A stretch of 64,000 bases of DNA, from positions 78,358 through 142,357 of IMG/VR virus record IMGVR_UViG_3300012346_000561; one strand, 5' to 3'. Under the pieces are notes generated by a model, which was not told the origin of the DNA, did no database searches, and worked only from the letters and a program-made list of their open reading frames with translations. This stretch comes from a virus. Lineage: Duplodnaviria; Heunggongvirae; Uroviricota; Caudoviricetes. The translations under genes and the position numbers were made by a program. Shown here piece after piece: positions 21,126-34,597 of this stretch; position 1 is the stretch's first letter; every line of letters starts with the position of its first letter.

Positions 21126-21508
21126 AATGTATCGAAAACCTTAGTTGCAAAAACGTGTATATGTTTTGTATATTAATAACAGATACAGGCAGTTCAACAT
21201 ATAACGAGTTATTTGACATATTGAATTATTGACTATTGGGATATAGGTGGTGACCGTGCTAGGGTTTAGCAGCTGGGTAGGTAGGAGGACACCTTGGGGA
21301 AATTACCCTTAGAAGAATTTTTGAGGAAGGAAAGTAACCATAACTACATCTTATTTATTTAGTTATATAAATATATATCCCTTTAGTTCAATTTCTATCA
21401 GAAAAATACAAATAGATGTAGCTCGAAAAAACCGATTAAAAAACCGTTTGATGTAAATTAACTATCAACTTTATTTCAACATGCTCTCACAGTGACGTCA
21501 CCTTGACC

Positions 21509-21540
21509 TCGGTACAAAAAGAGAAGGCCTAAGCCTCCTC
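21509..21540 (-). terminator. weak terminator-like hairpin after gene 21529..21807
   Basis: GAGAAGGC-ctaa-GCCTCCTC with T-run on minus strand (A5 at 21509-21513). Confidence 0.3.
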
Positions 21541-21807: not shown

Positions 21808-21872
21808 AATGTTATTTGTTTTAATTATTGATACCTAAAGATACTGAAATTAATTTACTTATGCAACTATCT
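21808..21872 (-). promoter_or_regulatory. class-1 conserved early promoter cassette
   Basis: minus-sense AGTTGCATAAG(-33)-20nt-TATCTTTAGGTATCAATAATTAAAACA-ATG. Confidence 0.5.
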
Positions 21873-22089
21873 TGAGAGATTTTTTATCTACTGATACTAA
21901 TTTACTTTCTCTTGTCTTGAGTACTGCTTCATCGTTCTCGTAGAATATTTGTACTAGCACTCCTTCTACTTCCTTACCAAAGAATTTGTCTACCCCTCGA
22001 TACACTACTCCTATTATTGGAGTGGAGGTCTTGGGAATATTCTTAGAAGCCCTCAACTTCCACTTACCTCTTAAATCTTGTTCTGCCAT
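21859..22089 (-). CDS. early hypothetical protein
   Basis: 76 aa; ATGA overlap with upstream gene. Confidence 0.4.
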   Translation of the reverse strand: MAEQDLRGKWKLRASKNIPKTSTPIIGVVYRGVDKFFGKEVEGVLVQIFYENDEAVLKTRESKLVSVDKKSLKIVA

Positions 22090-22298
22090 TACACCATCTC
22101 CTTATCAACTTGTTCTTGAAAATTCTCTAATGCCAATCTGTAACCAAAGTTCATTGCCATTTGCATTAACAATAAATCCATCGATCCGTGATTGGCTTTT
22201 GCAAATGATTCTAGATCTTCTCTAGTGTTTGGAGTTGCAACTATTCCTCTACTTAACATGTTAAACTCTCCTACTAAATACTCTTGTAAATTTTCCAT
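22089..22298 (-). CDS. early hypothetical protein
   Basis: 69 aa; promoter cassette upstream. Confidence 0.4.
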   Translation of the reverse strand: MENLQEYLVGEFNMLSRGIVATPNTREDLESFAKANHGSMDLLLMQMAMNFGYRLALENFQEQVDKEMV

Positions 22299-22375
22299 GA
22301 TGTTATTTGTTTTAATTATTAATGAGATAAAGATAAGAAATTATATAATGCGAGACAACTTTTATTCGTCGTCTC
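22299..22375 (-). promoter_or_regulatory. class-1 promoter cassette (variant)
   Basis: AAAGTTGTCTCGCATTATATAATTTCTTATCTTTATCTCATTAATAATTAAAACA. Confidence 0.45.
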
Positions 22376-22730
22376 TTTCTTCATCAACTCTTTCTAATTC
22401 AACAACATCTTGTTCAACTTCTGCTTCTCCAAAATCCATGAAGTTATTTTCTAATGCCTCTCTGATCTCTTCAAAGTTAATTTGAACACTAGTACATGCA
22501 ATTTTATTTCCCCATTCAATTTCAAACTCAGCATTCTCTAAATCCAATATGTCTCTTTCATTGTTTTCAATCCAATCAATTGTTCGATCGATCGCTCTCT
22601 GAATATCAGTAGTAGTAATTTCTCTACTTGAACCTACTTCAATTGAATTGATAATGTTGATAACATCTTCTGTACTGAAGATTGAACTTACTGAATTCTG
22701 AACTGCTTGTACTGCTTCTAATTTTGTCAT
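22362..22730 (-). CDS. early hypothetical acidic protein
   Basis: 122 aa; promoter cassette upstream. Confidence 0.45.
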   Translation of the reverse strand: MTKLEAVQAVQNSVSSIFSTEDVINIINSIEVGSSREITTTDIQRAIDRTIDWIENNERDILDLENAEFEIEWGNKIACTSVQINFEEIREALENNFMDFGEAEVEQDVVELERVDEERDDE

Positions 22731-22795
22731 AACTTTTATTGTTTTAATTATTGATACCTAAAGATACTCTTTTTCTACTTACGAAGCAACTTTTT
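22731..22795 (-). promoter_or_regulatory. class-1 promoter cassette
   Basis: AAAAAGTTGCTTCG...TATCTTTAGGTATCAATAATTAAAAC. Confidence 0.5.
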
Positions 22796-23006
22796 ATTCA
22801 ATTACTTTACTTTGTAGAAACTTAATAAACTTTTTAAGTTCTTGTTGATTAAGAAACAAATGTTCACTACCCCCAATCTTACTATCGCATTCAATTTCAA
22901 CATCTCCATCAGAATGACTTGAAATATTCCAAGTAGACCATTTTTGTTCAATAGTCATACTATTCCATTGTGGGTTATTTTCGAAGGTTGTAATTTCTAT
23001 AGACAT
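22794..23006 (-). CDS. early hypothetical protein
   Basis: 70 aa; promoter cassette upstream. Confidence 0.45.
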   Translation of the reverse strand: MSIEITTFENNPQWNSMTIEQKWSTWNISSHSDGDVEIECDSKIGGSEHLFLNQQELKKFIKFLQSKVIE

Positions 23007-23073
23007 AACTTATATTGTTTTAATTATTGATACCTAAAGATAGTAAATTATTTAATGCGAGACAACATTTTTG
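23007..23073 (-). promoter_or_regulatory. class-1 promoter cassette
   Basis: AAATGTTGTCTCGCATTA...TATCTTTAGGTATCAATAATTAAAACA. Confidence 0.5.
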
Positions 23074-23367
23074 TTAATTAATATAAATTTTTTCTCCATC
23101 CCATTCCTCTCCATTCAAATACGTTTGACCTTTCTTAACATTAACTCTAACATCATCTAAACCATTCAATCTTTCGAATGTAGTTCTAGTAGGCCATCCT
23201 GCATCTGTAATCCAAACTCCCATACGATCCATTCCTGCAATTGTATTACCATGAAGTTTTAATAATGGATACCCATCATCCTCAATCTGAACTGACATGT
23301 TTGACTTGTTGAACTTTACTCTGTTGTAGAAATTCTGAACTGACTCTTGTGTGATTTTTCTTGACAT
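23074..23367 (-). CDS. early hypothetical protein
   Basis: 97 aa; promoter cassette upstream. Confidence 0.45.
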   Translation of the reverse strand: MSRKITQESVQNFYNRVKFNKSNMSVQIEDDGYPLLKLHGNTIAGMDRMGVWITDAGWPTRTTFERLNGLDDVRVNVKKGQTYLNGEEWDGEKIYIN

Positions 23368-23436
23368 AACTTTTATTGTTTTAATTATTGATACCTAAAG
23401 ATAGTGAATAATATAATACGAGACAACAGTCTCACT
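23368..23436 (-). promoter_or_regulatory. class-1 promoter cassette
   Basis: same core, CTGTTGTCTCGTATTATATT...TATCTTTAGGTATCAATAATTAAAACA. Confidence 0.5.
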
Positions 23437-23620
23437 GATTTATTTTATAAAGGGATGTAATATGAAACATCCCCTATTCTAATGAACTGATCTTTGTTGA
23501 AGTTCTTTTTTGCATTTTTCAAATATGTAGCAGTACCATATGTTACTCCGTTCAACTTGATTGTATTCTTTGTAGTTTTGATTTTATTTGACATGATTGT
23601 AAGTTTAATGTTAGTTAATA

Positions 23621-23890
23621 TTATTTTCTGTAGAAACAAAACCTTGTACCAGGAACACTGTGATACCCGTATTTTGATTGATTGTACTTTGTGTAAGCAA
23701 GTTTGAAACCTTTGTTCGACATATCTTCGACAATCTGATCGATGATAGGCTGAGAGTACTGAGTGAAGCAAACTTTTACACCTACAGCGAGACCTTTTTT
23801 TCTAGTATCAGAGTATACTAATTGTTGGAATACGTGACCTGTAACTTTAGTAATACTTTTTTTCAATTCTGAAGTAATTGAATTTTTCAT
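23621..23890 (-). CDS. early hypothetical protein
   Basis: 89 aa; promoter cassette upstream; the overlapping ORF 23445..23771 judged mostly spurious (possible 49-aa gene 23445..23594). Confidence 0.45.
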   Translation of the reverse strand: MKNSITSELKKSITKVTGHVFQQLVYSDTRKKGLAVGVKVCFTQYSQPIIDQIVEDMSNKGFKLAYTKYNQSKYGYHSVPGTRFCFYRK

Positions 23891-23958
23891 AGTTTTATAT
23901 TGTTTTAATTATTGATACCTAAAGATAGTCTTTTAAATAATGCGAGACAACTTTTTTT
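23891..23958 (-). promoter_or_regulatory. class-1 promoter cassette
   Basis: AAAAAGTTGTCTCGCATTATTTAAAAGACTATCTTTAGGTATCAATAATTAAAACA. Confidence 0.5.
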
Positions 23959-24034
23959 ACAATTATTTTCAATTTATTTTATAACCCAAAAGAGCCACCC
24001 TAAGGTAGCTCTCTCTTCGATCAATAATTAAAAA

Positions 24035-24823
24035 CTATTCAGCTAAAGTGCGCTGAACAATACTTTCTCGTAGCCAGTAGACCTGGTCCACAATGCTCTC
24101 TACGTTGCAATTTTCTTCTCTACTTGTATGATCTCCGTGAGCGAAGTTAAATACAACAGTACCTTTCTTACCACTCTTACTTGGATCAGTCAACCTGATC
24201 GACTTGATAGTTGGAGTGTAGTTATATTTTAATTGAATACCCCTTCCTTTATCGAAAGTTATTCCTTCATCTTTCAAATCAAATTCAATCTTTTCTTTTA
24301 TCAAGAAAGTGATCATTCTCTCTACTCCATTAATCTCTATTCCCAATTCATGCAATTCTCTGTACACTACCTCAAATTCTGCCCTGAAAGGAATTACAGC
24401 ACTATTAACAGCATCCAACATTTTATCCTGATCCTTCAGAACAATCTCTGCTAAATCTCCTAACATTCTCAATCTTCTTAATTCCCAAGCATCAACTCCT
24501 TTTGTAGAGGTTGTATAGTAAGACAAGTCCACTCCTGTAAAAGACTTGCTATTCTTCCCTCCATCAAGATTATAATTCTCCCTTAAGTACAAACTAAATA
24601 ATTCTTTTTTGTAAGAGTAATCTGGATGATCTGCTTTAAAGTAAACAGACCCTCTAGTTACTTCAATATATGTATATGGACTAAATCCTGTGAAGAAAGG
24701 AAGTAAAGCATCTGAGATTGCTTGTTGCTCTCTTGTATAGATGTCATCACTCTTCTTCTGTAATTCTAATTTGCTTGCTGTAAGGACTGCCTTTTGATCC
24801 TCTAATAAACTTAATCTTGTCAT
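24035..24823 (-). CDS. early hypothetical protein
   Basis: 262 aa; promoter cassette upstream. Confidence 0.5.
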   Translation of the reverse strand: MTRLSLLEDQKAVLTASKLELQKKSDDIYTREQQAISDALLPFFTGFSPYTYIEVTRGSVYFKADHPDYSYKKELFSLYLRENYNLDGGKNSKSFTGVDLSYYTTSTKGVDAWELRRLRMLGDLAEIVLKDQDKMLDAVNSAVIPFRAEFEVVYRELHELGIEINGVERMITFLIKEKIEFDLKDEGITFDKGRGIQLKYNYTPTIKSIRLTDPSKSGKKGTVVFNFAHGDHTSREENCNVESIVDQVYWLRESIVQRTLAE

Positions 24824-24892
24824 AATGTTATATGTTTTAATTATTGATACCTAAAGATAGTCCTTTTAACAACACGAAGCAACTTTTTTTTA
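24824..24892 (-). promoter_or_regulatory. class-1 promoter cassette
   Basis: AAAAAAGTTGCTTCGTGTTGTTAAAAGGACTATCTTTAGGTATCAATAATTAAAACA. Confidence 0.5.
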
Positions 24893-25444
24893 AAGTTTTT
24901 CCAAAACTTTTTTAATAAAATTTTGATCGTAATCCGTAGTGCTGAAGTATTCTGTAAGAAATTCTTTTGCGTCTTGTCTGTTAAACTCAACTTCAAATTC
25001 ATTCTCCCAAGTATCATCACCATTAATAACCATTAGTAAAATACTATCGATCAGAAATTTATCATTATACAACCCAGTAACTTCATCTGCAGTTAAAGTT
25101 AAACGACCTAATGCTCTTGGAATTACAATAGTGTCTTGTTTAGTAGTTTCAACCACTTCAACTTTCTCAACTACTGGAGATGCAATATTATAAACAAATC
25201 GACTTTGATTTTTCTTTTTCTCAGTTCGACATACTAAACCCTTAGCGACAGCTCGTCTCAACAAGTCTGCGTATTTTTTATTTGATTCTAATTGTCTGGG
25301 AGCGTATCTGTAATAACCCCAAACACCCTCTTGGATTTCAGATTCTGTTTGATTTGGATTGTTAGTTAAGAATTCGACAATCTGCTTAACTGAATTTCTT
25401 GGCTGGTCAAAACCTTTGCCCATTAACATTGTTGAGTAACCCAT
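24890..25444 (-). CDS. early hypothetical protein
   Basis: 184 aa; promoter cassette upstream. Confidence 0.5.
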   Translation of the reverse strand: MGYSTMLMGKGFDQPRNSVKQIVEFLTNNPNQTESEIQEGVWGYYRYAPRQLESNKKYADLLRRAVAKGLVCRTEKKKNQSRFVYNIASPVVEKVEVVETTKQDTIVIPRALGRLTLTADEVTGLYNDKFLIDSILLMVINGDDTWENEFEVEFNRQDAKEFLTEYFSTTDYDQNFIKKVLEKL

Positions 25445-25512
25445 GATTTATATTGTTTTAATTATTGATACCTAAAGATAGTTAAAAATATAATACGAAG
25501 CAACTTTTTTTA
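25445..25512 (-). promoter_or_regulatory. class-1 promoter cassette
   Basis: AAAAAGTTGCTTCGTATTATATTTTTAACTATCTTTAGGTATCAATAATTAAAACA. Confidence 0.5.
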
Positions 25513-25645
25513 CAATTAATTTAAAGATAAATTTGCTTGGGCCATTTTAACAACTAATTCCTGAGGGTTGAAAGACATGTAAGAAACTCCTCCTAAATTT
25601 ACTTCGTAATAAGTAACTCCTAATAATACTACCTTTTTCATAACT

Positions 25646-26053
25646 CTATTGATTTAAAACTGAGAATTGATTCTCGTATGAATAATTCATAACAAATACT
25701 TTGTCAGCCCAAGTCTTAGCTCCTACTGCCTGGTATTGCTCCTGAGAGTATAGATTTGTGTTGTAGAACAATTGATTAACAGTACCTACTTCCAATTGCT
25801 CAGCAATCTCTTTATCCAATATACCTACTCTAGTACTCTTTCTAGCAAATACTGTTAACCAGTAGTTACATCCTTCAGGCTGGAATTGAATAGTCTGTAG
25901 AGCTCCTTTCTTCCATCTGTTTAGGGAAGGTAACTCAGATCCTATTTCATATGCCGTATAGAAACCTGCCTGTGTTTTAACAATAGCTTCATAAGTACCT
26001 TTTCTACCGTTAATGAAATCTACTACCTGTAATCCTTTAATTGTGTTGATCAT
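25646..26053 (-). CDS. early hypothetical protein
   Basis: 135 aa; promoter cassette variant upstream. Confidence 0.5.
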   Translation of the reverse strand: MINTIKGLQVVDFINGRKGTYEAIVKTQAGFYTAYEIGSELPSLNRWKKGALQTIQFQPEGCNYWLTVFARKSTRVGILDKEIAEQLEVGTVNQLFYNTNLYSQEQYQAVGAKTWADKVFVMNYSYENQFSVLNQ

Positions 26054-26118
26054 GATTTTTGTCGTTTTAATTATTGATGGGGTAAAGATACTGCTTTAGG
26101 GAATACGAGGCAACAGGT
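26054..26118 (-). promoter_or_regulatory. class-1 promoter cassette (diverged -7 flank)
   Basis: CTGTTGCCTCGTATTCCCTAAAGCAGTATCTTTACCCCATCAATAATTAAAACGACAAAAATC. Confidence 0.45.
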
Positions 26119-26294
26119 AAGGGTAATTTAGAATGAAAATAAATAACAAATTATTTTAGCCAAAGTGTTGCATATGAAGATCTTTAGGCGTATCTTTAGG
26201 TATTGAAAAAGCAAGGAGCTGTCAAGGGGCCTGGTTCGAGAGATCCGGAAGAGTAGACCGGACAGCGCTCCACACTCGTTACTTAAAGTAAAGC

Positions 26295-26360
26295 TTTAAC
26301 TGAAAGCAATACTTTCACTTCCATCAACACTTTAACTGAAAGCTTTAGTTTAACTGAAAG
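26295..26360. repeat. 3 direct copies of TTTAACTGAAAG
   Basis: copies at 26296-26307, 26330-26341, 26349-26360. Confidence 0.5.
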
Positions 26361-26379
26361 TAATGATTTAAGTAAAAAG

Positions 26380-26412
26380 AAAAAGGATCCTGTTTGGATC
26401 CTCTTTTTTTAT
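26380..26412. terminator. bidirectional rho-independent terminator
   Basis: AAAAAGGATCC-tgttt-GGATCCTCTTTTTTT: 7-bp stem flanked by A-run and T-run. Confidence 0.55.
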
Positions 26413-26510
26413 GTTTGTCTTTTCTGTCGTAAGTTTTTTTGCTCTTGTGCACCTTGTGCTGAGAAGCTGCCCACCTTTCCTGGAGGGTTACTTGAATTGT
26501 TTTCATAAGG

Positions 26511-26726
26511 CTAATAAAAATACATATTGTGAATGATTGTGTTGTCCAGGAGAATCTTCTGCCCTACGTGAGCATTGCTCCACTGAGCTCTACTATACAT
26601 AGTTGCAGTTACCTCTAAGGTGCTTTTAAATTTCCCTACTGAGATTAATTTAGCCTTTAGGGTAGGAGAGTAATTACACGAACAATCTTTCCCTATTACT
26701 GATTTTAATTCCTCGATACGTGTCAT
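26511..26726 (-). CDS. hypothetical protein (start revised to ATG at 26724-26726)
   Basis: promoter cassette at 26727-26790 lies inside the longer track ORF 26511..26825, so internal Met (MTRIEELK) is the likely start. Confidence 0.4.
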   Translation of the reverse strand: MTRIEELKSVIGKDCSCNYSPTLKAKLISVGKFKSTLEVTATMYSRAQWSNAHVGQKILLDNTIIHNMYFY

Positions 26727-26790
26727 ATGTTTGTCTTTAGTTCCTAAAGATACTGCTTTTTTTGTTACGAGACAACATTTTTTTACATTA
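26727..26790 (-). promoter_or_regulatory. class-1 promoter cassette (diverged downstream half)
   Basis: AAAAATGTTGTCTCGTAACAAAAAAAGCAGTATCTTTAGGAACTAAAGACAAACAT-ATG. Confidence 0.45.
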
Positions 26791-26853
26791 TTCGCAATAC
26801 TTTTAAGTTTTCCTATAAGGGACAATTATCACATTCTCAACAGTTCTGCAATT

Positions 26854-27025
26854 CGGTTGCGAATCCGTTAACCAAACGGTTCCTTAGACGGTTAGCCAAC
26901 TGGTTTCCAGGTCGGTTAGCCAAACGGTTCTGTAGACGGTTCACCAAACAGTTACCCAAACGGTTTCTTAGGCGGTTTCGTAGACGGTTTGCCAATCGGT
27001 TACCCAATCAGTTTTTTAATCGGTT
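26854..27025. repeat. 15 tandem 12-bp-phased CGGTT (CAGTT) iteron-like repeats
   Basis: CGGTT/CAGTT/TGGTT start at 26854, 26865, 26877, 26889, 26901, 26913, 26925, 26937, 26949, 26961, 26973, 26985, 26997, 27009, 27021; unit consensus nnCnAAnCGGTT. Confidence 0.7.
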
Positions 27026-27029
27026 AGGT

Positions 27030-27295
27030 AGGATAAAAACCACCTATATACAAATTTGTTAAGAGGAGGAGACACACGTGACATTTTTTACCTATATCTC
27101 CTACCCTTTACTTTACCATTTTCTACACATTATATAGCCAACCTAGTACTTTGTATAACCTATTACCTTGTATTTGATACATTTGGTTATATTTTTATAT
27201 ACTTTACAATCTATACATTACCATATGATTTACCTAGTGTTTCTAACGTATTTTCCCTTGTTATACCACGGGATCTTGTAAGGTACGATCGCTTT
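27030..27295. other. AT-rich tract between the two CGGTT arrays (candidate DNA-unwinding element)
   Basis: ~265 bp with no credible ORF, A+T visibly higher than flanks; plus-strand ORF 27056..27397 judged spurious. Confidence 0.4.
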
Positions 27296-27301
27296 GCTAA
27301 T

Positions 27302-27366
27302 CGGTTATGCAAACGGGTGCACAAACGGTTATCCAATCGGTTTTGTGATCGGTTTACTTATCAGTT
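27302..27366. repeat. second array, 6 copies of 12-bp-phased CGGTT repeat, same orientation
   Basis: CGGTT/CGGGT/CAGTT at 27302, 27314, 27326, 27338, 27350, 27362. Confidence 0.65.
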
Positions 27367-27704
27367 AATATGGTCATTGTGTTCTTATCAAACATAGATT
27401 TGTGTACGACCTTTTGTGTACCATCACTCATTAATAAGCTATAGTGTGAAGGTCTCTTTTGAATTATCCTTACCACAGTTACATTTGCATTACTATTAGT
27501 AGTATTATCTTTTTTATCTACAATAGTATTTGCTTTTACTATAGGGGTACTAGTAGTAGTGTCTGGAGTATTATCTATTGTACTCTCTACTATGTTATCT
27601 TTCTGATCTGTACTTTGATTTGAGATTTGATTAGTAATGTTTTGATCAACTGTTGTTGGTTCATTAGTTGTTTGTGTCTGTGTGCTTGCTGTTTGCTTTG
27701 CCAT
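27354..27704 (-). CDS. low-complexity Thr/Asn/Gln-rich protein with basic C-terminal domain
   Basis: 116 aa; 3' end overlaps second CGGTT repeat array. Confidence 0.4.
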   Translation of the reverse strand: MAKQTASTQTQTTNEPTTVDQNITNQISNQSTDQKDNIVESTIDNTPDTTTSTPIVKANTIVDKKDNTTNSNANVTVVRIIQKRPSHYSLLMSDGTQKVVHKSMFDKNTMTILTDK

Positions 27705-27845
27705 TTGTATTTGATTTTAATTTATAATTTTTGTTTTTAGATTGTTTTGTTTTAGGTCTTGGAGGCATTGGTATTCTTCTTCCTCCTCCTTTCAATCCAA
27801 CACTACCTGTCATTGCTAATACAAGTAGTAGCCAAATGAAGAACA

Positions 27846-28043
27846 TCATATCTCTTCCAATGTTAATATTGATATACAATGTGGAAAGTTATCATAGTCT
27901 CTGAGTATTACCAATCCTCCTTGTTCGTTTACTACCTGGACAGCTATTCCTTCTATAACCTTTCCTGCTCCTTTTCTAGAGTTAAAGGTTACTTTATTAC
28001 CTCTGTACTTCTTAAAGTATAATACTACGTCTTCAATCTTCAT
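27846..28043 (-). CDS. small hypothetical protein
   Basis: 65 aa ORF. Confidence 0.35.
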   Translation of the reverse strand: MKIEDVVLYFKKYRGNKVTFNSRKGAGKVIEGIAVQVVNEQGGLVILRDYDNFPHCISILTLEEI

Positions 28044-28174
28044 GTTGTATAACTAAATAAGGTTTATCTTTGTCTGTCTTTTTTATTGTACCGCTTTGTA
28101 TTAGTTCCTGAGTACCTTGAGGATCTTTCTGAGACATTATTAGGATTGTCTGCTCCATATAGATTACTTTCATA

Positions 28175-28681
28175 TTATCTATTTTTTGTTTGATTTAACC
28201 ACACTCCGTAATCATCTTCATTTACTTGATATCCCCAATGAAGAAGGCTTTGTTGAATTCTAGGACTTACATCCCAATCACCTGTACTATCAATCATTCC
28301 ATATATCCTTTGTCTCCATCTTCCATTAGGTCCGCAAAAGTCCAACCATCTCTGTATCTGTCTTTGATCATCTGAGTGTCTTCTGCCCATGTAGTATTTG
28401 CAATACCATTCAAACCATCCGTATGGATCATCTTCATGCATCCAATTACTATCTTTCCAAAATTGGTAGTCCTTACCACTTCTTACTCTAAACTTATTGT
28501 CCTTTGGCTGATACTTGTTAGATAAATATAAACTTGGATCTATATCTCCAAATGATTCGAACAATTCACTGTAATACATATCACCTTGTAGTTTCTGTAC
28601 TCCGAAGTAAGATCCCCCAAAGATGCCTTGTTTTAGCATTTGACTTGGAGTTAGGTTAGGTTTAAAGTTTGAATTGTCCAT
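28175..28681 (-). CDS. Trp/Tyr-rich hypothetical protein
   Basis: 168 aa; conserved 18-mer TTGTTAAAATTTGCGCGT lies 17-34 nt upstream of its ATG. Confidence 0.45.
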   Translation of the reverse strand: MDNSNFKPNLTPSQMLKQGIFGGSYFGVQKLQGDMYYSELFESFGDIDPSLYLSNKYQPKDNKFRVRSGKDYQFWKDSNWMHEDDPYGWFEWYCKYYMGRRHSDDQRQIQRWLDFCGPNGRWRQRIYGMIDSTGDWDVSPRIQQSLLHWGYQVNEDDYGVWLNQTKNR

Positions 28682-28696
28682 GTAATGTTTGTGTAC

Positions 28697-28714
28697 TTGT
28701 TAAAATTTGCGCGT
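28697..28714 (-). promoter_or_regulatory. conserved 18-mer TTGTTAAAATTTGCGCGT (copy 1)
   Basis: exact 18/18 match to 53260-53277; lies 17-34 nt upstream of ATG of 28175..28681. Confidence 0.4.
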
Positions 28715-28725
28715 CACGGCTTGAG

Positions 28726-28836
28726 TTAGCGCCCTCGTCGTTTCTTTGCTGCAGGCTCCAACAATAAGACTATTCCTATTACAAATCCTGCAACAACACA
28801 TCCCATTGCTATTGCTCCTACTATTGCATGTATCAT
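28726..28836 (-). CDS. 36-aa hydrophobic membrane peptide (not in ORF track)
   Basis: ATG..MIHAIVGAIAMGCVVAGFVIGIVLLLEPAAKKRRGR..TAA. Confidence 0.25.
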   Translation of the reverse strand: MIHAIVGAIAMGCVVAGFVIGIVLLLEPAAKKRRGR

Positions 28837-28932
28837 ATTGAATCTATTTGTTCTTGTGTTAAACTACTTCTCCACTCCTGAATGTACTTCTCCTCTTCGT
28901 CAAGTAATGCTTGTAACTCTTCTTCTGTCATA

Positions 28933-28968
28933 ACCTTTATCTTTTTAATTATACTTAAATATACAAAA
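28933..28968 (-). promoter_or_regulatory. class-2 promoter-like element
   Basis: TATATTTAAGTATAATTAAAAAGATAAAGGTT-ATG; precedes 33-aa ORF 28833..28932. Confidence 0.35.
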
Positions 28969-29577
28969 TTAATCCTTAGGCTCCAAACTTTTTGGGAAAT
29001 AAAGTAGTGTTGGATTTTTCTTTTGTATATCAATCTCTGGAAATCTATCGCTAAATGATTTAATATCAAACCTTTCTGTTATTAAGTGATATCCATTTTT
29101 AGTTGGAATTGTAGTTATAGTCTTATTTCCAACAGGCCTAAGGTTATCAATAAAATCTCCTACTTCAACTAAAGTCTTAAAGTCCTTAGTATCAATATCA
29201 ACAATCCATCTCTTCTCTTGAGTCTTTATTTGTCCTACAACTGAATCAAATAAACCTTTTTGATTGTTACTTCCATTCTGTATACGTTGTGCTAGTGCAG
29301 ACATCATACTCAGAGATACATCAAAGTGATTTTGTTTCTGTACATGAATATAAGCTCTTGCTTTAAACATCTCACATAGCTGGATAATCTCGTCATAACG
29401 TCTCTCTAAATGATCGATACTTTCTATACAGTAAGTCTTAATTGTTCTTACTGATTGATGATTATCTCTCTCTCCTTCCGGTTGATCTTTCTTACGCTTG
29501 AATACATACAGCATATAGAAGTCTCCTTTGTTCTCGTAATTAAGCAATGGCTTAATCAATTCTATATTATTTATCAT
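28969..29577 (-). CDS. hypothetical protein
   Basis: 202 aa ORF. Confidence 0.45.
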   Translation of the reverse strand: MINNIELIKPLLNYENKGDFYMLYVFKRKKDQPEGERDNHQSVRTIKTYCIESIDHLERRYDEIIQLCEMFKARAYIHVQKQNHFDVSLSMMSALAQRIQNGSNNQKGLFDSVVGQIKTQEKRWIVDIDTKDFKTLVEVGDFIDNLRPVGNKTITTIPTKNGYHLITERFDIKSFSDRFPEIDIQKKNPTLLYFPKSLEPKD

Positions 29578-29598
29578 TTTGATTTGTATCTTAATTAA

Positions 29599-29856
29599 TT
29601 ACTTTTCTCTACTATCTAACATTGCCTTAACTGATTCTAAGATAGCTTTAGCAGAGAAATCACCATCCTCGTATAGGGTTATTTCATTTCTAATACTATT
29701 TAACAGTTCATAAGCCTCTAAGTCACCAAATTGTTTACTTAATCCCTCAGCATGTGACTGTGCTTCTAATAGTGAACTAAAGGAAGAAATAAGCGTACCA
29801 TTTCTATAAACAGAAGTATCCTTGGTATAATATTGTTTCTTTGTATATGCTCTCAT
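29599..29856 (-). CDS. hypothetical protein
   Basis: 85 aa; promoter cassette (class 2) upstream. Confidence 0.45.
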   Translation of the reverse strand: MRAYTKKQYYTKDTSVYRNGTLISSFSSLLEAQSHAEGLSKQFGDLEAYELLNSIRNEITLYEDGDFSAKAILESVKAMLDSREK

Positions 29857-29915
29857 AACCTCTATTGTTTTTAATTATACCTAAATATAAGGAATTGCCT
29901 CCGAAGAGGCAACTT
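29857..29915 (-). promoter_or_regulatory. class-2 promoter cassette with hairpin over -33
   Basis: AAAAAAGTTGCCTCTTCGGAGGCAA..TATATTTAGGTATAATTAAAAACAATAGAGGTT-ATG. Confidence 0.5.
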
Positions 29916-29924
29916 TTTTACTAG

Positions 29925-30659
29925 TTATTTTTCAAATGTTGGCTTTAACCACATATCTTTTCCGAATACAACCTCCATAAATCTAGGCTCTATTTTATCT
30001 ATTTCATTGAATAGTCTTAGAGTCTTTACAGTGTCAGCTTGCATCATCTTAATAACTTCTTCTCTTATTCTCTCTCCACTTACCACTTCCTCTAGTTTAT
30101 TAATTAGAGTTGGAAAAAATATAGCTGACCATACTTTTGGTGCTATTACAAATCCTTTAGTAATAGAGAATCTAAGTGCTCTTAACATTCTCAATGGATC
30201 ATCTAGAAACGTCTGAGCTGGATCTAATGGTGTTAATAACATTCTATTCTCCAAAGCCCACATACCGTCAAACAAATCGATAAGATTTCCATCCTCATCC
30301 TCAGCCATAGCATTGACTGTAAAGTCTCTACGAACCAAATCATCCTCTAATGTTCCTAATTCTAGTATCGGACGTCTTGTTCCTTCTACATATCCTACTT
30401 CTTTTCTTGCCATTACAAAGTCAGCATCTAATTTAGCAAACTTATGATCACTTGGAAATTTAGCTCTGATTGTAAACATCTCTGGAACTGAAAGGAATAT
30501 TGTGAATCCTTGATCAATCATCCATTGTTCCATCTCTTTGAATCCTTCTTCAACTGTTTTGTTTAGATCATCTAATACAAATGTGAAGTCGATATCTTTT
30601 GTTTTTACTCCTAGGAGTCCATCTCTGACGCATCCTCCTACTTTAAATATTTTTGGCAT
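29925..30659 (-). CDS. nucleotidyltransferase of the CCA-adding / poly(A) polymerase head-domain family
   Basis: N-terminal GGCVRDGLLG...DIDFTF matches class II tRNA nucleotidyltransferase GGxVRDxLLG...DxD motif; 244 aa. Confidence 0.55.
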   Translation of the reverse strand: MPKIFKVGGCVRDGLLGVKTKDIDFTFVLDDLNKTVEEGFKEMEQWMIDQGFTIFLSVPEMFTIRAKFPSDHKFAKLDADFVMARKEVGYVEGTRRPILELGTLEDDLVRRDFTVNAMAEDEDGNLIDLFDGMWALENRMLLTPLDPAQTFLDDPLRMLRALRFSITKGFVIAPKVWSAIFFPTLINKLEEVVSGERIREEVIKMMQADTVKTLRLFNEIDKIEPRFMEVVFGKDMWLKPTFEK

Positions 30660-30669
30660 AACCTTTCTT

Positions 30670-31086
30670 TTAAATTAATTTAAGTGCTTCTTGTAATCCT
30701 ACTTCTAATGCTTCTTCGTAAGTATTAAAAAACTTACTCTTAAATTTAGACTTATGATGCATTCCAAACTTTATAACATTGGAATAGTACATTATTGGAC
30801 AATTATGAGGTAAACCAACATTAATTGTAATATGCAACCTATACTGCTCTCTTAACCATTTTTGAAGTAGTGATTGTGTTGGCGCTTCTATATTACCATA
30901 CTTAGCATCAACCTCTCTATTTTCTTTTTTACTTAAAATAAATTCCTTTATTTGCTCTAAACAGTCTCCATCTAATTCACCTTTATAGTTGTAATAATGG
31001 TTACCCCATAATTTAGTTATAGGTTTACTAAAATCTTTTTCTTTAGCTAATTTAGCTGTTTCAAATGTTACTACCTGTTCTTGCAT
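30670..31086 (-). CDS. hypothetical protein
   Basis: 138 aa. Confidence 0.4.
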   Translation of the reverse strand: MQEQVVTFETAKLAKEKDFSKPITKLWGNHYYNYKGELDGDCLEQIKEFILSKKENREVDAKYGNIEAPTQSLLQKWLREQYRLHITINVGLPHNCPIMYYSNVIKFGMHHKSKFKSKFFNTYEEALEVGLQEALKLI

Positions 31087-31091
31087 AACCT

Positions 31092-31475
31092 TTATTTTAA
31101 TGTTTCTCTTAATTTAACTAATACTTTCTTCAAGTGTCTTGTATTGTCGTAGTTGTTTATAAAGCTACCTGAGATTTCACTTGCTGTAAATAATGTCTTT
31201 GTAATATACCCTTCAAAGAATCTAGAACGACATTGCTCTAATATCTCAGGACATTTACTCTCACTTGTCATCAACCCACATACCCAAAAGCCATCTCTCT
31301 TCTCCAATAGAATGTATGGATGATTAAATATTGTATGCATGAAAACATCTCCTACCTTATGAAATTTAGGCTTTCTAGTAGCTGATGATCCTGGTAAGCA
31401 ACCTATCCATGACATTAATTGCTGATGGTTGTACTTACCTTCCTTTACTTTCTCTATTAATTGAAACTTATCCAT
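31092..31475 (-). CDS. hypothetical protein
   Basis: 127 aa; promoter cassette upstream. Confidence 0.4.
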   Translation of the reverse strand: MDKFQLIEKVKEGKYNHQQLMSWIGCLPGSSATRKPKFHKVGDVFMHTIFNHPYILLEKRDGFWVCGLMTSESKCPEILEQCRSRFFEGYITKTLFTASEISGSFINNYDNTRHLKKVLVKLRETLK

Positions 31476-31545
31476 AACCTTTATTTTTAATTTCTATACC
31501 TAAATATACGAAAAAAGGCCTACCGAAGCAAGCCTTTTGTCAATT
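31476..31545 (-). promoter_or_regulatory. class-2 promoter cassette
   Basis: AAAAGGCTTGCTTCGGTAGGCCTTTTTTCGTATATTTAGGTATAGAAATTAAAAATAAAGGTT-ATG. Confidence 0.5.
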
Positions 31546-31562
31546 ATTTTTAAAATATTTTA

Positions 31563-32399
31563 CTATTTTATATTCATCATAAAATTACCTCCACCACTTG
31601 TGATGTATTGTGGTACTTGTGATCCACCTCTTCTCCATGCTTCAATCCATTGTTGTTGCAATAACATTGGTGTTAATGTTCTTTGTTTTAAAGTATTTGC
31701 TTCAGCTTCAGCTCTTGCTCTTGTAAGTGTTGATTGAGCATCTCCTTCTGCTTCTGCTACTTTAATCTTAGCTTCTGCCTCAGCCTGCTTAACTCTATTC
31801 TCAGCCATTAAAGCTTTCTGTACTGCATTGTTTTTGGCATTAATAGCATTCTTGAATGATTTTGGATATTCTAAATTAGTTGTAAATTGATCCAATACAA
31901 ACCCTTCTGGCTCTAATTGCTTTCTTAATGTTAATTTTACTTTATTATCAAATGCCTCTCTACTTGAGATTAATTGATCAGCAGTATAACTATTTGTAAC
32001 AATTCTAAATGCTTCTGTTACAGCTGTCTTTAAGAATCCATTCTCAATACCATCTAAGTCTTTTCTGTATTTTGCAAAGATCTGTGTGGCCTTATCTGGA
32101 TTAATTCTATAGTTTACAATTGGACTAACATGGAACTCTGATCCATCTTTACTATTCACTACGAATGATCCTTCTTCTGTATATTCTTTATGACGAATAT
32201 TGATTGGAAATTCATAGATGTTTGTTGTGATTGGATTATAAAAGACTGTACCTGTACATTCTGTTACTCCACTTACCCCTCTTCCTGTACCAAACTTGTT
32301 TACTTTGATACCAATGTTACCTGAGTCAATGTTCTCACATGACATGGTTACTGCAAAAACTACTAGGATTAATCCTACTGCTACTAAAATTCTGTTCAT
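31563..32399 (-). CDS. SPFH / band-7 (prohibitin-stomatin-HflK/C) family membrane protein
   Basis: N-terminal TM/signal; C-terminal Ala/Glu coiled coil KQAEAEAKIKVAEAEGDAQSTLTRARAEAEA typical of SPFH domain. Confidence 0.6.
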   Translation of the reverse strand: MNRILVAVGLILVVFAVTMSCENIDSGNIGIKVNKFGTGRGVSGVTECTGTVFYNPITTNIYEFPINIRHKEYTEEGSFVVNSKDGSEFHVSPIVNYRINPDKATQIFAKYRKDLDGIENGFLKTAVTEAFRIVTNSYTADQLISSREAFDNKVKLTLRKQLEPEGFVLDQFTTNLEYPKSFKNAINAKNNAVQKALMAENRVKQAEAEAKIKVAEAEGDAQSTLTRARAEAEANTLKQRTLTPMLLQQQWIEAWRRGGSQVPQYITSGGGNFMMNIK

Positions 32400-32482
32400 A
32401 ACTTCTTTGTTTAAATTTGATTTATAATTAATTGTTTATTATTATACCTAAATATACGAAATATATTCTTAGGAGGCAACTA
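32400..32482 (-). promoter_or_regulatory. class-2 promoter cassette
   Basis: AGTTGCCTCCTAAG..TCGTATATTTAGGTATAATAATAAACAATTAATT. Confidence 0.45.
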
Positions 32483-32854
32483 ATCCAGCCCTAATTTTTT
32501 TCTTTTATTTGTCTTAAAGGTAGAATTTTCAATATCATCTTTAAATAACTTCTTAACTCTGCTATAAGATTTACTCCATATTGGAATTACTCCTACTTCT
32601 GGGATGTGATATGGAAATAGAATAGAGTACTGTGTTTCGTAGATTGAAGGATTGGGCCACCCTATTATATCTAATACAAACTTATCATTCCACCTTTTTG
32701 ATACCCCATTTATAAGATTTTTACTTTCGATCTTATCTAAATAATCTGAGATGTCTTTGTCTGAGATTGGTGAGCCTAATTCAAATAAAGCTATACTTTC
32801 AAGTACTCCTAAAACTACTAAACCTACAATTAATATTACTAATAATACTACCAT
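32480..32854 (-). CDS. membrane-anchored hypothetical protein
   Basis: 124 aa; N-terminal TM. Confidence 0.4.
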   Translation of the reverse strand: MVVLLVILIVGLVVLGVLESIALFELGSPISDKDISDYLDKIESKNLINGVSKRWNDKFVLDIIGWPNPSIYETQYSILFPYHIPEVGVIPIWSKSYSRVKKLFKDDIENSTFKTNKRKKLGLD

Positions 32855-33530: not shown

Positions 33531-33767
33531 TTAATTTATGTATAATAAGTTTCCTTGTTCATCCTCTATCTTTGTTACTTCCATCTTCTTGTCTACACGC
33601 TCAAGTACCTGCTTTCCGTTAAACTGGAAGTACATGTTAAATGCCTGTGCAAATGTCTGAAAGTCATATGTTATGTAATCTCCCTTCTCTTGCAGATAGA
33701 ATTTATAAAACCAAGCCAGATCGTACTGGCCTGATTTTCTCATTTGTATGTACTGCTCTCTACTCAT
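33531..33767 (-). CDS. hypothetical protein
   Basis: 78 aa. Confidence 0.4.
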   Translation of the reverse strand: MSREQYIQMRKSGQYDLAWFYKFYLQEKGDYITYDFQTFAQAFNMYFQFNGKQVLERVDKKMEVTKIEDEQGNLLYIN

Positions 33768-34597
33768 TAGTTAACAAATGCTGTTGCAAGTTTGAAGAGC
33801 TTCTGATTAACTTCTAGATCTTTCTCGAATGATTTGATCTTCTTAACCTTTCTTACTTTAGCTCCTCTCAATGCTGCTGAGTATCCTCCGTTGATGACAG
33901 CCTCCTGTACTCTGTTGAATACTAGCCATAAACTGTCTCCTTCATCTTCTTTTCTTGTAGCCTTCAACACTTCTTCGATACTTGCATCAGTGTACTCAGC
34001 ATCAGGATTTGTAGTTCTCAAAGCCATAGCATCGATTGCTAACTGTCTTTGCTCTTGTGGAGTAAGCATTCTAACTTGCATTTTGTTTAGAACCTCAACC
34101 TTATTTGGAAGATCCGCAACTGCAGAAGCTACTACTGTTTGTAATTCTTCAAACGTATATCCTTTGTGTTTGATACTGAATGCTGAGAATTCTTCGTCAG
34201 CAACTACCAATCCATTAGAGCAAACCAATCTGTAGATCCCAACTCTGAACTGGAATGAACTTAATCCATCGTGAGAGTTTGTTACAATAATTCTTGGGAA
34301 AGCATCATCACCATTCTTACCTTTAATCATAAGATCAGGATTCTGAAATGATACTATGTGTTTAGATCTGATAGTAGGTGATCCATCCTTTCTTGGTTTA
34401 GTTCTTCTTTGTGCTGCACTTACTGGAAGCCATCCTAACTTTGCTAAGTCGTCGATAACTGTCTCAGTGTTAACATGTAGGTACTTATCGCTTACTCCTT
34501 TGTTGGTAGGTTCTGTAGCAAATACTACTGGTGCGATCTCTTTGATTTGATCTTTTGAAAGGTAAGAATCTAAACCTGTGTTGAATTTTGATAACAT
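33767..34597 (-). CDS. DUF932-like phage/plasmid protein
   Basis: 276 aa; IVTNSHDGLSSF resembles conserved NSHDGS motif of DUF932. Confidence 0.45.
   Translation of the reverse strand: MLSKFNTGLDSYLSKDQIKEIAPVVFATEPTNKGVSDKYLHVNTETVIDDLAKLGWLPVSAAQRRTKPRKDGSPTIRSKHIVSFQNPDLMIKGKNGDDAFPRIIVTNSHDGLSSFQFRVGIYRLVCSNGLVVADEEFSAFSIKHKGYTFEELQTVVASAVADLPNKVEVLNKMQVRMLTPQEQRQLAIDAMALRTTNPDAEYTDASIEEVLKATRKEDEGDSLWLVFNRVQEAVINGGYSAALRGAKVRKVKKIKSFEKDLEVNQKLFKLATAFVN

What the first reader, a model, noticed from the sequence alone, without database searches (positions are those of the whole stretch)
26845..27370. Two arrays of strictly 12-bp-phased CGGTT repeats flanking an AT-rich tract: candidate replication origin or centromere-like site
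Seen in sequence: fifteen CGGTT-type motifs start every 12 bp (one 11-bp step) from 26854 to 27021, and six more at 27302-27362 in the same orientation. The two arrays bracket a ~265-bp AT-rich segment with no ORF. The whole ~1.2-kb region (26.05-27.35 kb) is non-coding in an otherwise >90% coding genome. Direct, regularly phased short repeats flanking an AT-rich unwinding element is the classic architecture of iteron origins (lambda ori, P1 oriR, plasmid iterons) and of ParR/ParG-type centromeres (R1 parC: two sets of 11-bp iterons). The adjacent Thr/Asn-rich protein 27354..27704 overlaps the second array and could be the binding protein.
Basis: partly seen in the sequence, partly recalled or inferred. 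Interest (0 to 1): 0.8.

Follow-up and report, generated by a model that had tools for sequence, protein, structure and literature searches.

The report
Phased protein-binding repeat arrays in phage
A Flavobacterium phage carries one site per genome where 21 copies of a short DNA word sit every 12 bases in two blocks around a conserved core; this is almost certainly a docking platform for a still unidentified phage protein, most likely a replication origin.

Summary
The repeats are real. Fifteen units lie at 26854-27033 and six at 27302-27373, all starting CGGTT at a 12-bp period; shuffles give zero such triplets. The same two-array layout occurs in about 12 related phage contigs, including Flavobacterium phage immuto, where it is the only such site in 160 kb.

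The core word comes in two versions: AAACGGTT (as here) or AAACGGGT. A second, two-repeat site 5.4 kb away carries the matching version in each of the five loci where it was found (only one of its two repeats in L032). That points to a diffusible sequence-specific protein whose specificity has switched.

- The spacer is hardly AT-rich (31% against 35% GC) and holds conserved sequence islands.
- The "1.2-kb non-coding" stretch contains two small genes, one of them ArfA-like.
- The adjacent Thr/Asn-rich protein is absent from half of the array-bearing relatives.

No Rep, Par, Tub or HTH protein was found. In 23 unrelated phages, 12-bp-phased AACCGTT repeats lie inside a replication-initiator gene, as in lambda ori/O. 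In five others they lie just upstream of the terminase genes.

Best reading: an iteron-type origin (about 0.4). Rivals are a StbA/TubR/ParR-like regulatory or segregation complex and a packaging site. The binding protein is unidentified; a DUF932 protein co-segregates with the repeat version.

The parts
26854..27033 (+). Array 1. Fifteen 12-bp units (one 11-bp step), each starting CGGTT on the + strand (AACCG on the gene-sense minus strand). Unit consensus is nnC(C/T)AA(A/T)CGGTT, with alternating CCAAA/TAGA sub-types giving a 24-bp super-period.
   Evidence: homologous and in register in immuto and in 10 further loci
27034..27301 (.). Core or spacer between the arrays. It has 31% GC and is G-poor on the + strand. 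It has no conserved ORF and no promoter box. Sequence islands are conserved in 8 loci: an AGTACTAGGTA...GTACT inverted repeat, GATGTGTA, AAAAATGTG..GTGTGTC, and CTATA(A/T)(T/A).
   Evidence: RNAalifold finds no convincing structure; no promoter box
27302..27373 (+). Array 2. Six 12-bp units in the same orientation. One has the alternative core CGGGT (27314). The last one or two units overlap the 3' end of ORF 27354..27704.
21430..21453 (-). Remote two-repeat site: CATCAAACGGTT + TTTTAATCGGTT, 12 bp apart, inverted relative to the arrays, in the non-coding stretch 21220-21528. The core version matches the arrays in every locus where the site was found: CGGTT x2 in the window and L029/L030; CGGGT x2 in immuto and L034; CGGGT x1 in L032.
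21492..21510 (-). Conserved element GAGGTCAAGGTGACGTCAC, containing the 10-bp palindrome GTGACGTCAC. It lies just after an intrinsic terminator and about 45 bp upstream of the two-repeat site. It is also present in more distant relatives that lack arrays (L014/L015).
27354..27704 (-). 116-aa protein with a low-complexity N-terminus and a conserved C-terminal approximately 40 aa. It is not conserved next to the arrays.
26511..26726 (-). 71-aa gene (KDCSCN motif) directly downstream of array 1, with its own promoter box at 26740-26753. It is present in most array-bearing loci but absent in immuto.
33767..34597 (-). DUF932 protein (276 aa). It is the only gene not adjacent to the arrays whose phylogeny separates exactly by repeat version (4 AACCG-type and 6 ACCCG-type loci). 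It is a weak candidate partner. Its predicted fold is not a classical DNA-binding fold.

Best explanation
The two arrays are a single-copy assembly platform for a phage-encoded, sequence-specific DNA-binding protein. That protein recognises about 8 bp (AAACGGTT here, AAACGGGT in the sister lineage) and binds head-to-tail every 12 bp.

Because 12 bp exceeds the helical repeat, successive protomers spiral around the DNA, or the DNA wraps around a protein oligomer. About 180 bp (array 1) and 72 bp (array 2) would be wound in this way on either side of a conserved 265-330-bp core.

I think the most likely function is an iteron-type origin of phage DNA replication. The wrapped complex (O-some-like) would strain or open the core and recruit the phage DnaB-type helicase. 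The remote two-repeat site would act as an operator through which the same protein regulates transcription.

Shown: the anatomy, the conservation, the uniqueness in the genome, and the co-variation of the core word at two separate sites.

Inferred: that a protein binds, that it wraps DNA, and that replication starts here. The protein is not identified.
For: Reality and phasing:
- 0 triplets expected by chance, 16 found.

Conservation:
- Immuto shows the same architecture with an ACGGGT core.
- L007, L009, L029-L034 and L238-L241 also carry it.
- Repeat number varies: 15+6, about 12+7, 13+9 and 7+9.

Uniqueness:
- In the complete 160-kb immuto genome, 13 of 18 ACCCGT lie in this 750-bp stretch, and no other array exists.

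Trans-factor signature:
- All repeats carry one of two core versions.
- The two-repeat site 5.4 kb away carries the matching version in 5 independent loci.

Isolation from transcription:
- In immuto and L007 an intrinsic terminator precedes array 2. The next promoter box lies beyond array 1.

Origin reading:
- An exact scan for AACCGTT-N5 x3 in viral contigs gave 85 loci.
- 24 of them carry an ORF of one initiator family. It matches PHROG 1701, 'DnaD-like helicase loader / replisome organizer'. In L096 it is flanked by a cII-like gene, DnaB and NinB.
- In 23 of those 24 the 12-bp array lies inside that ORF.
- The array is read in three different frames (NGS, ETV, PFRERF linkers), so the DNA word rather than the peptide is what is conserved.
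- This is the lambda ori-inside-O arrangement.
- Immuto encodes DnaB, DnaG, PolA and SSB, but no annotated initiator.
Against: - No homologue of that initiator family exists in the window or in the whole immuto genome: hmmsearch E > 0.2, hhalign probability at most 7%.
- No Rep/HTH/RHH Pfam domain was found in window 17-38 kb.
- The spacer is not a marked stability minimum. It carries conserved sequence islands rather than plain AT-richness.
- The arrays are not next to any replication gene. In immuto, DnaB lies at 5-7 kb and the arrays at 66 kb.
- Relatives at 64% protein identity or less, and L035/L036, lack arrays within the fetched flanks. The element is therefore lineage-specific.
- GC skew is monotonic and uninformative.
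- The same motif and period also occur directly upstream of a putative terS-terL module in five contigs of one other phage group. The guilt-by-association evidence is therefore split.
- A two-direct-repeat operator elsewhere is more typical of StbA/ParR-type regulators than of lambda-O-type initiators.
Confidence: 0.4

Rival explanations
1. A centromere-like and/or global-regulator complex of the StbA/stbS, TubR/tubC or ParR/parC kind. A small phage DNA-binding protein coats the two arrays into a filament or ring. This complex positions or organises the phage genome (or silences the neighbourhood). The same protein represses promoters at short operator copies of the repeat.
For: - Two sets of same-orientation direct repeats around a core, plus a 2-repeat site in another intergenic region. 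This is the layout described for R388 stbS: 2x5 repeats on an 11-bp cycle, with operators of 2, 3 or 5 repeats at other promoters (bioRxiv 10.1101/2022.04.29.490116).
- tubC is described as seven 12-bp direct repeats in two sets (same paper). Split tubC sites form double rings (PMC6009700).
- Co-variation of the arrays and the remote site.
- The spacer is not AT-rich.
Against: - No ParM/ParA/TubZ-type NTPase and no HTH/RHH protein was detected by Pfam in window 17-38 kb. None is annotated anywhere in immuto.
- The genes flanking the arrays are variable. In par, stb and tub systems the binder gene sits immediately downstream of the site.
- No promoter box lies in the core.
- A T4-like-structured phage with no recognisable lysogeny or plasmid-maintenance genes in the annotation has no obvious need for partition. 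This last point is inference.
Confidence: 0.25
2. A packaging recognition site (pac or cosB-like). The small terminase ring binds the phased repeats, wraps the DNA and directs the first cut in or near the core.
For: - In five contigs of one other phage group (L057, L144, L169, L184, L187), 6-10 AACCGTT(T/A) repeats at 12 bp lie in the intergenic region directly upstream of a 253-281-aa gene followed by the large terminase (Terminase_6C) and portal.
- A 12-bp register fits DNA wrapped around a 9-10-mer ring. This is my own estimate, not a tool result.
- Two binding blocks flanking a cut site resemble SPP1 pacL/pacR (from memory).
Against: - In immuto the large terminase is at 119 kb, 52 kb from the arrays.
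- The head, portal and terminase genes are T4-like (gp20, gp23). By established knowledge, that group packages by headful without a unique pac site.
- The arrays sit in the middle of the small early-gene cluster, which has its own promoters.
- The 264-aa neighbours in the other phages have no homologue here.
Confidence: 0.12
3. Another cis function of a coated DNA segment. Possibilities are a titration sink for a regulator or a host protein, a stop or pause signal for DNA entry or transcription, or an incA-like copy-control array acting on an origin located elsewhere, for example in the 21.2-21.5 kb non-coding region.
For: - The second non-coding region is more widely conserved than the arrays. 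It is present in L014/L015, which lack arrays. It combines a palindrome, the two repeats and a TATATATTTATATA tract.
- Repeat number is very plastic.
- The arrays are dispensable in related lineages.
Against: - No positive evidence exists for any of these roles.
- The conserved core between the arrays is not explained by a pure sink.
Confidence: 0.15
4. The repeats are a translated low-complexity protein, or an assembly artefact.
For: A 56-aa ORF (26837..27007, minus strand, TTG start) reads NRL repeats through array 1.
Against: - The period contains an 11-bp step here and 11-13-bp jitter in relatives. This breaks any reading frame.
- No ORF is conserved.
- The arrays occur in independently assembled isolate genomes and metagenomes.
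Confidence: 0.01

Closest known systems
Lambda-type origin inside the initiator gene (ori/O). Here this means the phage initiator family PHROG 1701 ('DnaD-like helicase loader / replisome organizer') with internal AACCGTT repeats.
   Same: Same core word (AACCGTT) and same 12-bp period. Same head-to-tail direct repeats with variable 5-nt spacers. One site per genome.
   Different: There, 4-11 repeats lie inside the initiator ORF next to DnaB. Here, 21 repeats lie in non-coding DNA, split into two arrays around a conserved 265-bp core and far from replication genes. No homologue of that initiator is detectable. None of these origins has been tested experimentally as far as I could find.
R388 StbA / stbS
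   Same: Two sets of short direct repeats in one orientation, plus short operators (2-5 repeats) of the same word at other promoters, all bound by one small protein.
   Different: StbA/stbS uses an 11-bp cycle, 2x5 repeats and a short gap containing the stbA promoter, with the binder encoded immediately downstream on a plasmid. Here the period is 12 bp, the arrays are 15+6, the core is 265 bp without a promoter box, the neighbours are variable, and the genome is a lytic-type phage.
TubR / tubC (type III partition; pBtoxis, phage c-st)
   Same: [quoted passage not shown] The protein coats and bends the DNA into rings or filaments.
   Different: tubC lies upstream of tubR-tubZ. No tubulin-like or TubR-like gene was found here (annotation).
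R1 ParR / parC
   Different: R1 has an 11-bp period, 5+5 repeats, a 39-bp core holding the parMR promoter, an RHH binder and an actin-like ParM. None of these were found here.
T4 oriE '12-nt iterons'
   Same: A 12-nt period in a T4-like context. [quoted passage not shown]
   Different: The T4 repeats lie inside gene 5 (T4 79426-79557, TRF period 24). They probably reflect the repeated peptide of the gp5 C-terminal beta-helix, which is my inference. They are not a non-coding array.
P1 oriR incC / incA
   Same: Two iteron arrays in the same genome region, used for initiation and for control (from memory).
   Different: P1 has 19-bp iterons that flank the repA gene. Here no gene lies between the arrays.

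Membership tests
Iteron-type replication origin (lambda ori, plasmid Rep/iteron origins) | Three or more phased direct repeats that bind the initiator | tested here: met
   21 repeats at 12 bp. Protein binding itself is inferred from co-variation, not shown.
Iteron-type replication origin (lambda ori, plasmid Rep/iteron origins) | Adjacent AT-rich DNA unwinding element | tested here: inconclusive
   Spacer GC is 31% against 35% for the window. The minimum 100-bp stability is -109 kcal/mol (about 2.4 sd above the mean) but is not among the 15 least stable stretches of the window.
Iteron-type replication origin (lambda ori, plasmid Rep/iteron origins) | Cognate initiator gene containing or adjoining the iterons | tested here: not met
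   Neighbours have no Pfam or PHROG function and are variable between relatives.
Iteron-type replication origin (lambda ori, plasmid Rep/iteron origins) | Replication initiates at the site | not testable with these tools
   GC skew is monotonic because all genes are on one strand. No read-depth data were available.
PHROG 1701-type initiator with internal 12-bp AACCGTT iterons | 12-bp-phased AACCGTT direct repeats | tested here: met
   Sense-strand units read AACCG(T/A)(T/C)T. The same word and period occur in 23 initiator genes.
PHROG 1701-type initiator with internal 12-bp AACCGTT iterons | Initiator homologue encoded by the phage, with the array inside its ORF | tested here: not met
   hmmsearch of a 12-sequence N-domain profile against all ORFs of the window and of immuto: best E 0.28. 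hhalign: best probability 7%. The array is non-coding.
Type II partition (ParR/parC/ParM) | Iteron sets flanking the par promoter, with parM-parR immediately downstream | tested here: not met
   No promoter box in the core. The downstream genes are a 71-aa ORF and an ArfA-like ORF. No actin-like Pfam hit above threshold in 17-38 kb.
Type III partition (TubR/tubC/TubZ) | 12-bp direct repeats in two blocks | tested here: met
   tubC description
Type III partition (TubR/tubC/TubZ) | tubR (wHTH) and tubZ (tubulin-like GTPase) next to the site | tested here: not met
   No such Pfam families among 48 proteins of window 17-38 kb. None is annotated in immuto. The rest of the window was not scanned by Pfam.
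StbA/stbS-type centromere and regulator | Main site of two repeat sets plus short operators of the same repeat elsewhere | tested here: met
   Two-repeat site at 21430-21453, co-varying with the arrays.
StbA/stbS-type centromere and regulator | StbA-like HTH protein encoded next to the site; the site required for stable inheritance | tested here: not met
   No HTH protein was found. Inheritance cannot be tested here.
pac / cosB packaging site | Located in or next to the terminase small-subunit gene; genome termini generated there | tested here: not met
   TerL lies 52 kb away in immuto. Termini cannot be tested without reads.

The most novel reading that the evidence does not exclude
The arrays, the remote operator and the DUF932 protein could form a previously undescribed phage system. 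In it, a DUF932-family protein (a large family of unknown function on plasmids, ICEs and phages) would be the sequence-specific factor that coats 12-bp-phased repeats to start or control replication of a genome whose relatives' DNA is fully 7-deazaguanine-modified. Specificity would be switchable by a single base (T or G) across lineages. This would give DUF932 its first function and define a new origin or segrosome type.
Probability: 0.1. Interest if true: 0.8.

Novelty: new variant of a known kind. Interest (0 to 1): 0.55.

Why it matters
Replication origins and other genome-handling sites are essentially unmapped in Bacteroidota phages and in T4-like phages outside the enterobacterial models.

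This locus is unusually favourable for experiment:
- It is a single site with 21 near-identical binding words.
- There are two natural specificity variants that differ by one base.
- A built-in control exists in the co-varying remote operator.
- Cultured relatives exist (the immuto phages on Flavobacterium sp. LMO8).

In immuto, every guanine in the virion DNA is replaced by 7-(formylamino)methyl-7-deazaguanine (PMC10516641). There, the GG(G/T) core would be read through a heavily modified major groove, or only on newly made unmodified DNA.

The side finding may be a useful general predictor of phage origins: 12-bp AACCGTT repeats recur inside one family of phage initiator genes, in three reading frames.

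Tried and rejected
(1) Adjacent 116-aa protein as binder. Rejected because it is absent next to the arrays in L009, L029, L032, L033 and L034. It has no Pfam or PHROG hit.

(2) 53-aa basic protein (26345..26506) as an RHH-like binder. Rejected because it is ArfA-like. With 8 sequences it has no residues that segregate by repeat type.

(3) 65-aa protein (27846..28043). It is 95% identical between phages with different repeat words, with no segregating residue.

(4) Structured RNA in the spacer. RNAalifold gives -10.9 kcal/mol with a covariation term of -0.17. Rfam finds nothing, even at E up to 1.

(5) tRNA or tmRNA: none.

(6) GC-skew origin mapping: monotonic, uninformative.

(7) A sigma-70-type promoter scan adds nothing. 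The phage's own promoter box, GTATCTTTAGGTAT, is absent from the arrays and the core.

(8) Loose pattern scan AMCCG-N7 x4. This wasted one scan: most of the 120 or more hits are coding repeats or perfect tandem repeats.

(9) Homologues of the initiator (L096) and of the terS-like neighbours (L144, L057) in the window or immuto: none.

(11) T4 oriE iterons as a precedent. They lie inside gene 5 coding sequence.

(12) DnaA boxes and Bacteroidetes -33/-7 promoter motifs in the core. I looked by eye only and saw nothing convincing. This was not formally tested.
Full report
**What is in the sequence**

On the + strand, fifteen 12-bp units start at 26854, 26865 (the single 11-bp step), 26877 and then every 12 bp to 27021. 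Six further units start at 27302-27362, in the same orientation. The unit is nnC(C/T)AA(A/T)CGGTT. The information sits in the last 8 bases, AA(A/T)CGGTT.

Fifteen of the 21 CGGTT in the 64-kb window are here. Three CGGTT at 12-bp spacing (at most 1 mismatch) occur 16 times, all within 26865-27366. None occur in 100 dinucleotide-preserving shuffles.

TRF also reports 24- and 48-bp periods. Units alternate between a ..CCAAACGGTT and a ..TAGACGGTT flavour.

All 107 plausible genes of the window lie on the minus strand. On the gene-sense strand the word therefore reads AACCG(T/A)(T/C)T.

- The spacer (27034-27295) has 31% GC against 35% for the window. Its least stable 100 bp is not among the 15 least stable stretches of the window. 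'AT-rich unwinding element' is therefore not supported by composition.
- The '1.2-kb non-coding region' contains two real small genes on the minus strand. One is a 71-aa gene (26511..26726, true start at the ATG). The other is a 53-aa gene (26345..26506). Both are conserved at the protein level with synonymous changes.
- The region also has a perfect copy of the phage promoter box on the opposite strand (26190-26203). This box heads a conserved candidate antisense RNA.

**Source and relatives**

The window is about 80% identical to Flavobacterium phage vB_FspM_immuto (Immutovirus, 160 kb). Immuto has T4-like head genes, PolA, DnaB, DnaG and SSB. Every gene lies on one strand.

Immuto has the same element at 66.3-66.9 kb: about 13 repeats, a spacer, then 9 repeats, homologous and in register with the window. 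The core there is ACGGGT instead of ACGGTT. In the complete immuto genome, 13 of 18 ACCCGT lie in this 750-bp stretch, and no other phased array exists. The element is thus a single-copy site.

Searches with neighbouring proteins recovered more array-bearing contigs:
- AACCG type: window, L009, L029/30/31, L238, L241.
- ACCCG type: immuto, L007, L032, L033, L034, L239, L240.

Repeat numbers differ between loci, for example 15+6, 12+7, 13+9 and 7+9. The AACCG arrays keep a strict 12-bp step. The ACCCG arrays jitter between 11 and 13 bp. The distance between arrays (281-383 bp) has no conserved phase.

Relatives at 64% protein identity or less (L011-L028), and L035/L036, have no array in the fetched flanks. 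The element is therefore lineage-specific.

**Evidence for a trans-acting protein**

A position-weight scan of the window found two further high-scoring units exactly 12 bp apart at 21430-21453. They are inverted relative to the arrays and lie in a second non-coding stretch.

The homologous site carries the same word as the arrays in each locus:
- Immuto has CGGGT twice at the same spacing.
- L029/L030 (AACCG type) has CGGTT twice.
- L034 has CGGGT twice.
- L032 has CGGGT once.

A single-base switch is thus shared by about 20 repeats and by an operator-like site 5-7 kb away, in five independent loci. This is what one expects if one diffusible protein reads all of them and its specificity changed. 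It is hard to explain otherwise. Protein binding is inferred, not shown.

**The core between the arrays**

Across eight loci the core keeps sequence islands: an AGTACTAGGTA...GTACT inverted repeat, GATGTGTA, AAAAATGTG..GTGTGTC, and CTATA(A/T)(T/A).
- It has no conserved ORF.
- It has no copy of the phage promoter box.
- It shows no convincing RNA structure and no Rfam match.

In immuto and L007 an intrinsic terminator separates the upstream gene from array 2. The next promoter box lies beyond array 1. The element therefore sits between transcription units.

**Who binds?**

Other genes occupy that position in L009, L029 and L032-L034.
- Ten neighbours have no Pfam or PHROG function.
- A Pfam scan of 48 proteins from 17-38 kb shows no HTH, RHH, ParA, ParM, ParB, TubZ or Rep family.
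- The very basic 53-aa protein is ArfA-like and is not a candidate.

I compared 21 gene families across 4 AACCG-type and 6-7 ACCCG-type loci. Only two families separate cleanly by repeat type. One is the 71-aa gene that physically abuts array 1. The other is the DUF932 protein at 33767..34597, which lies 6.5 kb away with discordant (recombinant) genes in between.

This co-segregation is suggestive of coupling, but several points argue against it:
- DUF932 also occurs in relatives without arrays.
- Its AlphaFold model (pLDDT 71.6) has no significant PDB match by Foldseek.

The binder remains unidentified.

**Function by association**

An exact scan of viral contigs for AACCGTT-N5 three times gave 85 loci. 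Two recurrent contexts stand out.

(a) Initiator genes. In 24 loci, mostly GC-rich phages, there is an ORF of one family with the N-terminal motif LYLLTGPH. It matches PHROG 1701, 'DnaD-like helicase loader', with weaker matches to 'replisome organizer' and 'replication initiation protein' families. In L096 it is flanked by a cII-like gene, a DnaB helicase and NinB.
- In 23 of the 24 the array lies inside this ORF.
- The array is read in three different frames, giving NGS, ETV or PFRERF linkers. The DNA word, not the peptide, is therefore what is kept.
- This is the lambda arrangement of ori inside gene O.
- Note that 12 of the 24 sequences trained the profile; the other 12 are independent.

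(b) Terminase module. In five contigs of one AT-rich phage group (L057, L144, L169, L184, L187), 6-10 such repeats lie in the intergenic region directly upstream of a 253-281-aa gene followed by the large terminase. They sit next to a very AT-rich TATATA tract. That position suits either a packaging site or an origin.

Neither the initiator nor the terS-like protein has a detectable homologue in the window or in immuto.

**Comparison with known systems**

- The layout resembles R388 stbS/StbA: two sets of direct repeats plus short operators of 2-5 repeats at other promoters.
- It resembles tubC/TubR: seven 12-bp direct repeats in two sets, forming double rings.
- It resembles R1 parC/ParR.
- In all three, however, the binder and an NTPase are encoded next to the site and the core holds their promoter. 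None of that is seen here.
- The T4 oriE '12-nt iterons' are cited as an unexplained parallel (PMC3016281). They lie inside gene 5 (TRF period 24). They are probably the coding repeats of the gp5 beta-helix, so they are not a real precedent.

**Verdict**

Essentially certain: the element is a conserved, single-copy, phased array of binding sites with lineage-specific specificity.

What the element does is open. My estimates are:
- Iteron-type replication origin, about 0.4. In favour: the same word and period as in initiator-embedded arrays, a phage with its own helicase and primase but no known initiator, and a single site per genome.
- StbA/TubR/ParR-like regulatory or organising complex, about 0.25.
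- Packaging site, about 0.12.
- Other cis roles, about 0.15.

It is a new variant of a known kind, and it is well suited to experiment.

**Caveat on DNA modification**

Immuto DNA has all G replaced by fdPreQ1 (PMC10516641). The window phage has FolE and the end of QueE. Homologues of DpdA, DpdN and QueF were not detected in the window. Its modification state is therefore unknown.

Noticed in passing
window 26345-26506 (minus strand); terminator 26380-26406: A 53-aa basic protein is conserved in all array-bearing phages. One metagenome homologue is named 'stalled ribosome alternative rescue factor ArfA' by JGI. The motif KSKKTYDRKDKHKK resembles the ArfA KGKGSYxRKxKH motif (from memory). The ORF runs into a bidirectional intrinsic terminator, so the mRNA may lack a stop codon, as bacterial arfA mRNA does. 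This looks like a phage-encoded ribosome-rescue factor.
   Followed up: partly
window 26190-26410 (+ strand): This is a candidate antisense non-coding RNA and the only + strand transcription unit seen. A perfect promoter box, GTATCTTTAGGTAT, sits at 26190-26203. A conserved 5' domain (GGGGCCTGG...GGAAGAGTAGAC.GG) shows apparent compensatory changes. It is followed by 3-4 copies of an 18-nt CTTTAACTGAAAGC repeat (absent in L007) and by the shared terminator. It is convergent with the ArfA-like gene. No Rfam match.
   Followed up: partly
window 21220-21528: This is a second conserved non-coding region. In order it holds a terminator, GAGGTCAAGGTGACGTCAC (with the 10-bp palindrome GTGACGTCAC), TTGATAGTTAA, the two 12-bp repeats, TATTTCTGATAGAAATTGA, a TATATATTTATATA tract, and a GC-rich stretch (21240-21330). 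Parts of it are also present in more distant relatives without arrays (L014/L015). It could be a regulatory hub, an RNA gene or the actual origin.
   Followed up: partly
window 21831-36022 (minus strand), for example 21831, 22754, 23030, 23391, 23915, 24847, 25468, 26740, 31496, 32444: A phage promoter box, (G/C)TAT(C/A)TTTAGGTAT, recurs upstream of most small genes: 26 matches against 13 expected. It resembles the Bacteroidetes -7 element TAnnTTTG. It marks 20-36 kb as a cluster of individually promoted, presumably early, genes.
   Followed up: partly
L096 8658-8712, and L157, L159, L160, L165-L168, L170, L171, L176, L185, L189, L201, L206, L208, L211, L213, L216, L220, L224, L226, L232: A widespread phage replication-initiator family (N-terminal LYLLTGPH motif, PHROG 1701) carries 4-11 AACCGTT repeats at 12 bp inside its own gene. 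The repeats are read in three different frames in different phages. This is probably a lambda-O-like internal origin and a possible general origin predictor.
   Followed up: partly
L144 7709-7811, L184, L057 3428-3494, L169 878-968, L187 4006-4071: In one AT-rich phage group, the same AACCGTT(T/A) 12-bp arrays lie next to a TATATA-rich tract. They sit directly upstream of a 253-281-aa gene (terS-like by position) and the large terminase.
   Followed up: partly
L008 9427-9558 (T4 79426-79557): The classic T4 oriE '12-nt iterons' lie inside gene 5 coding sequence, with a 24-nt period. They probably reflect the repeated peptide of the gp5 needle rather than protein-binding iterons.
   Followed up: partly
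[not shown]
   Followed up: partly
window 56326-64000: The nucleotide-modification module differs from immuto. PolA, GTP cyclohydrolase I (60194-60835), a dCTP deaminase-like protein (61668-62147) and a non-specific endonuclease (62818-63402) are present. DpdA, DpdN and QueF homologues were not detected in the window.
   Followed up: partly
window 29925-30659 and 31563-32399 (minus strand): The early region also encodes a CCA-adding / poly(A) polymerase-family enzyme (PolyA_pol head domain) and an SPFH/Band 7 protein. The Band 7 gene is 99% identical to that of L033 but only 28-64% identical to those of other relatives, an example of strong mosaicism.
   Followed up: no
L177 about 580-900; L240 about 13170-13215: Some relatives carry extra blocks of the repeat. 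L177 has a third array downstream of the 'ttgcgaataatgtaa' element. L240 has two repeats inside the core and an insertion in array 2. The arrays therefore expand, contract and move.
   Followed up: no
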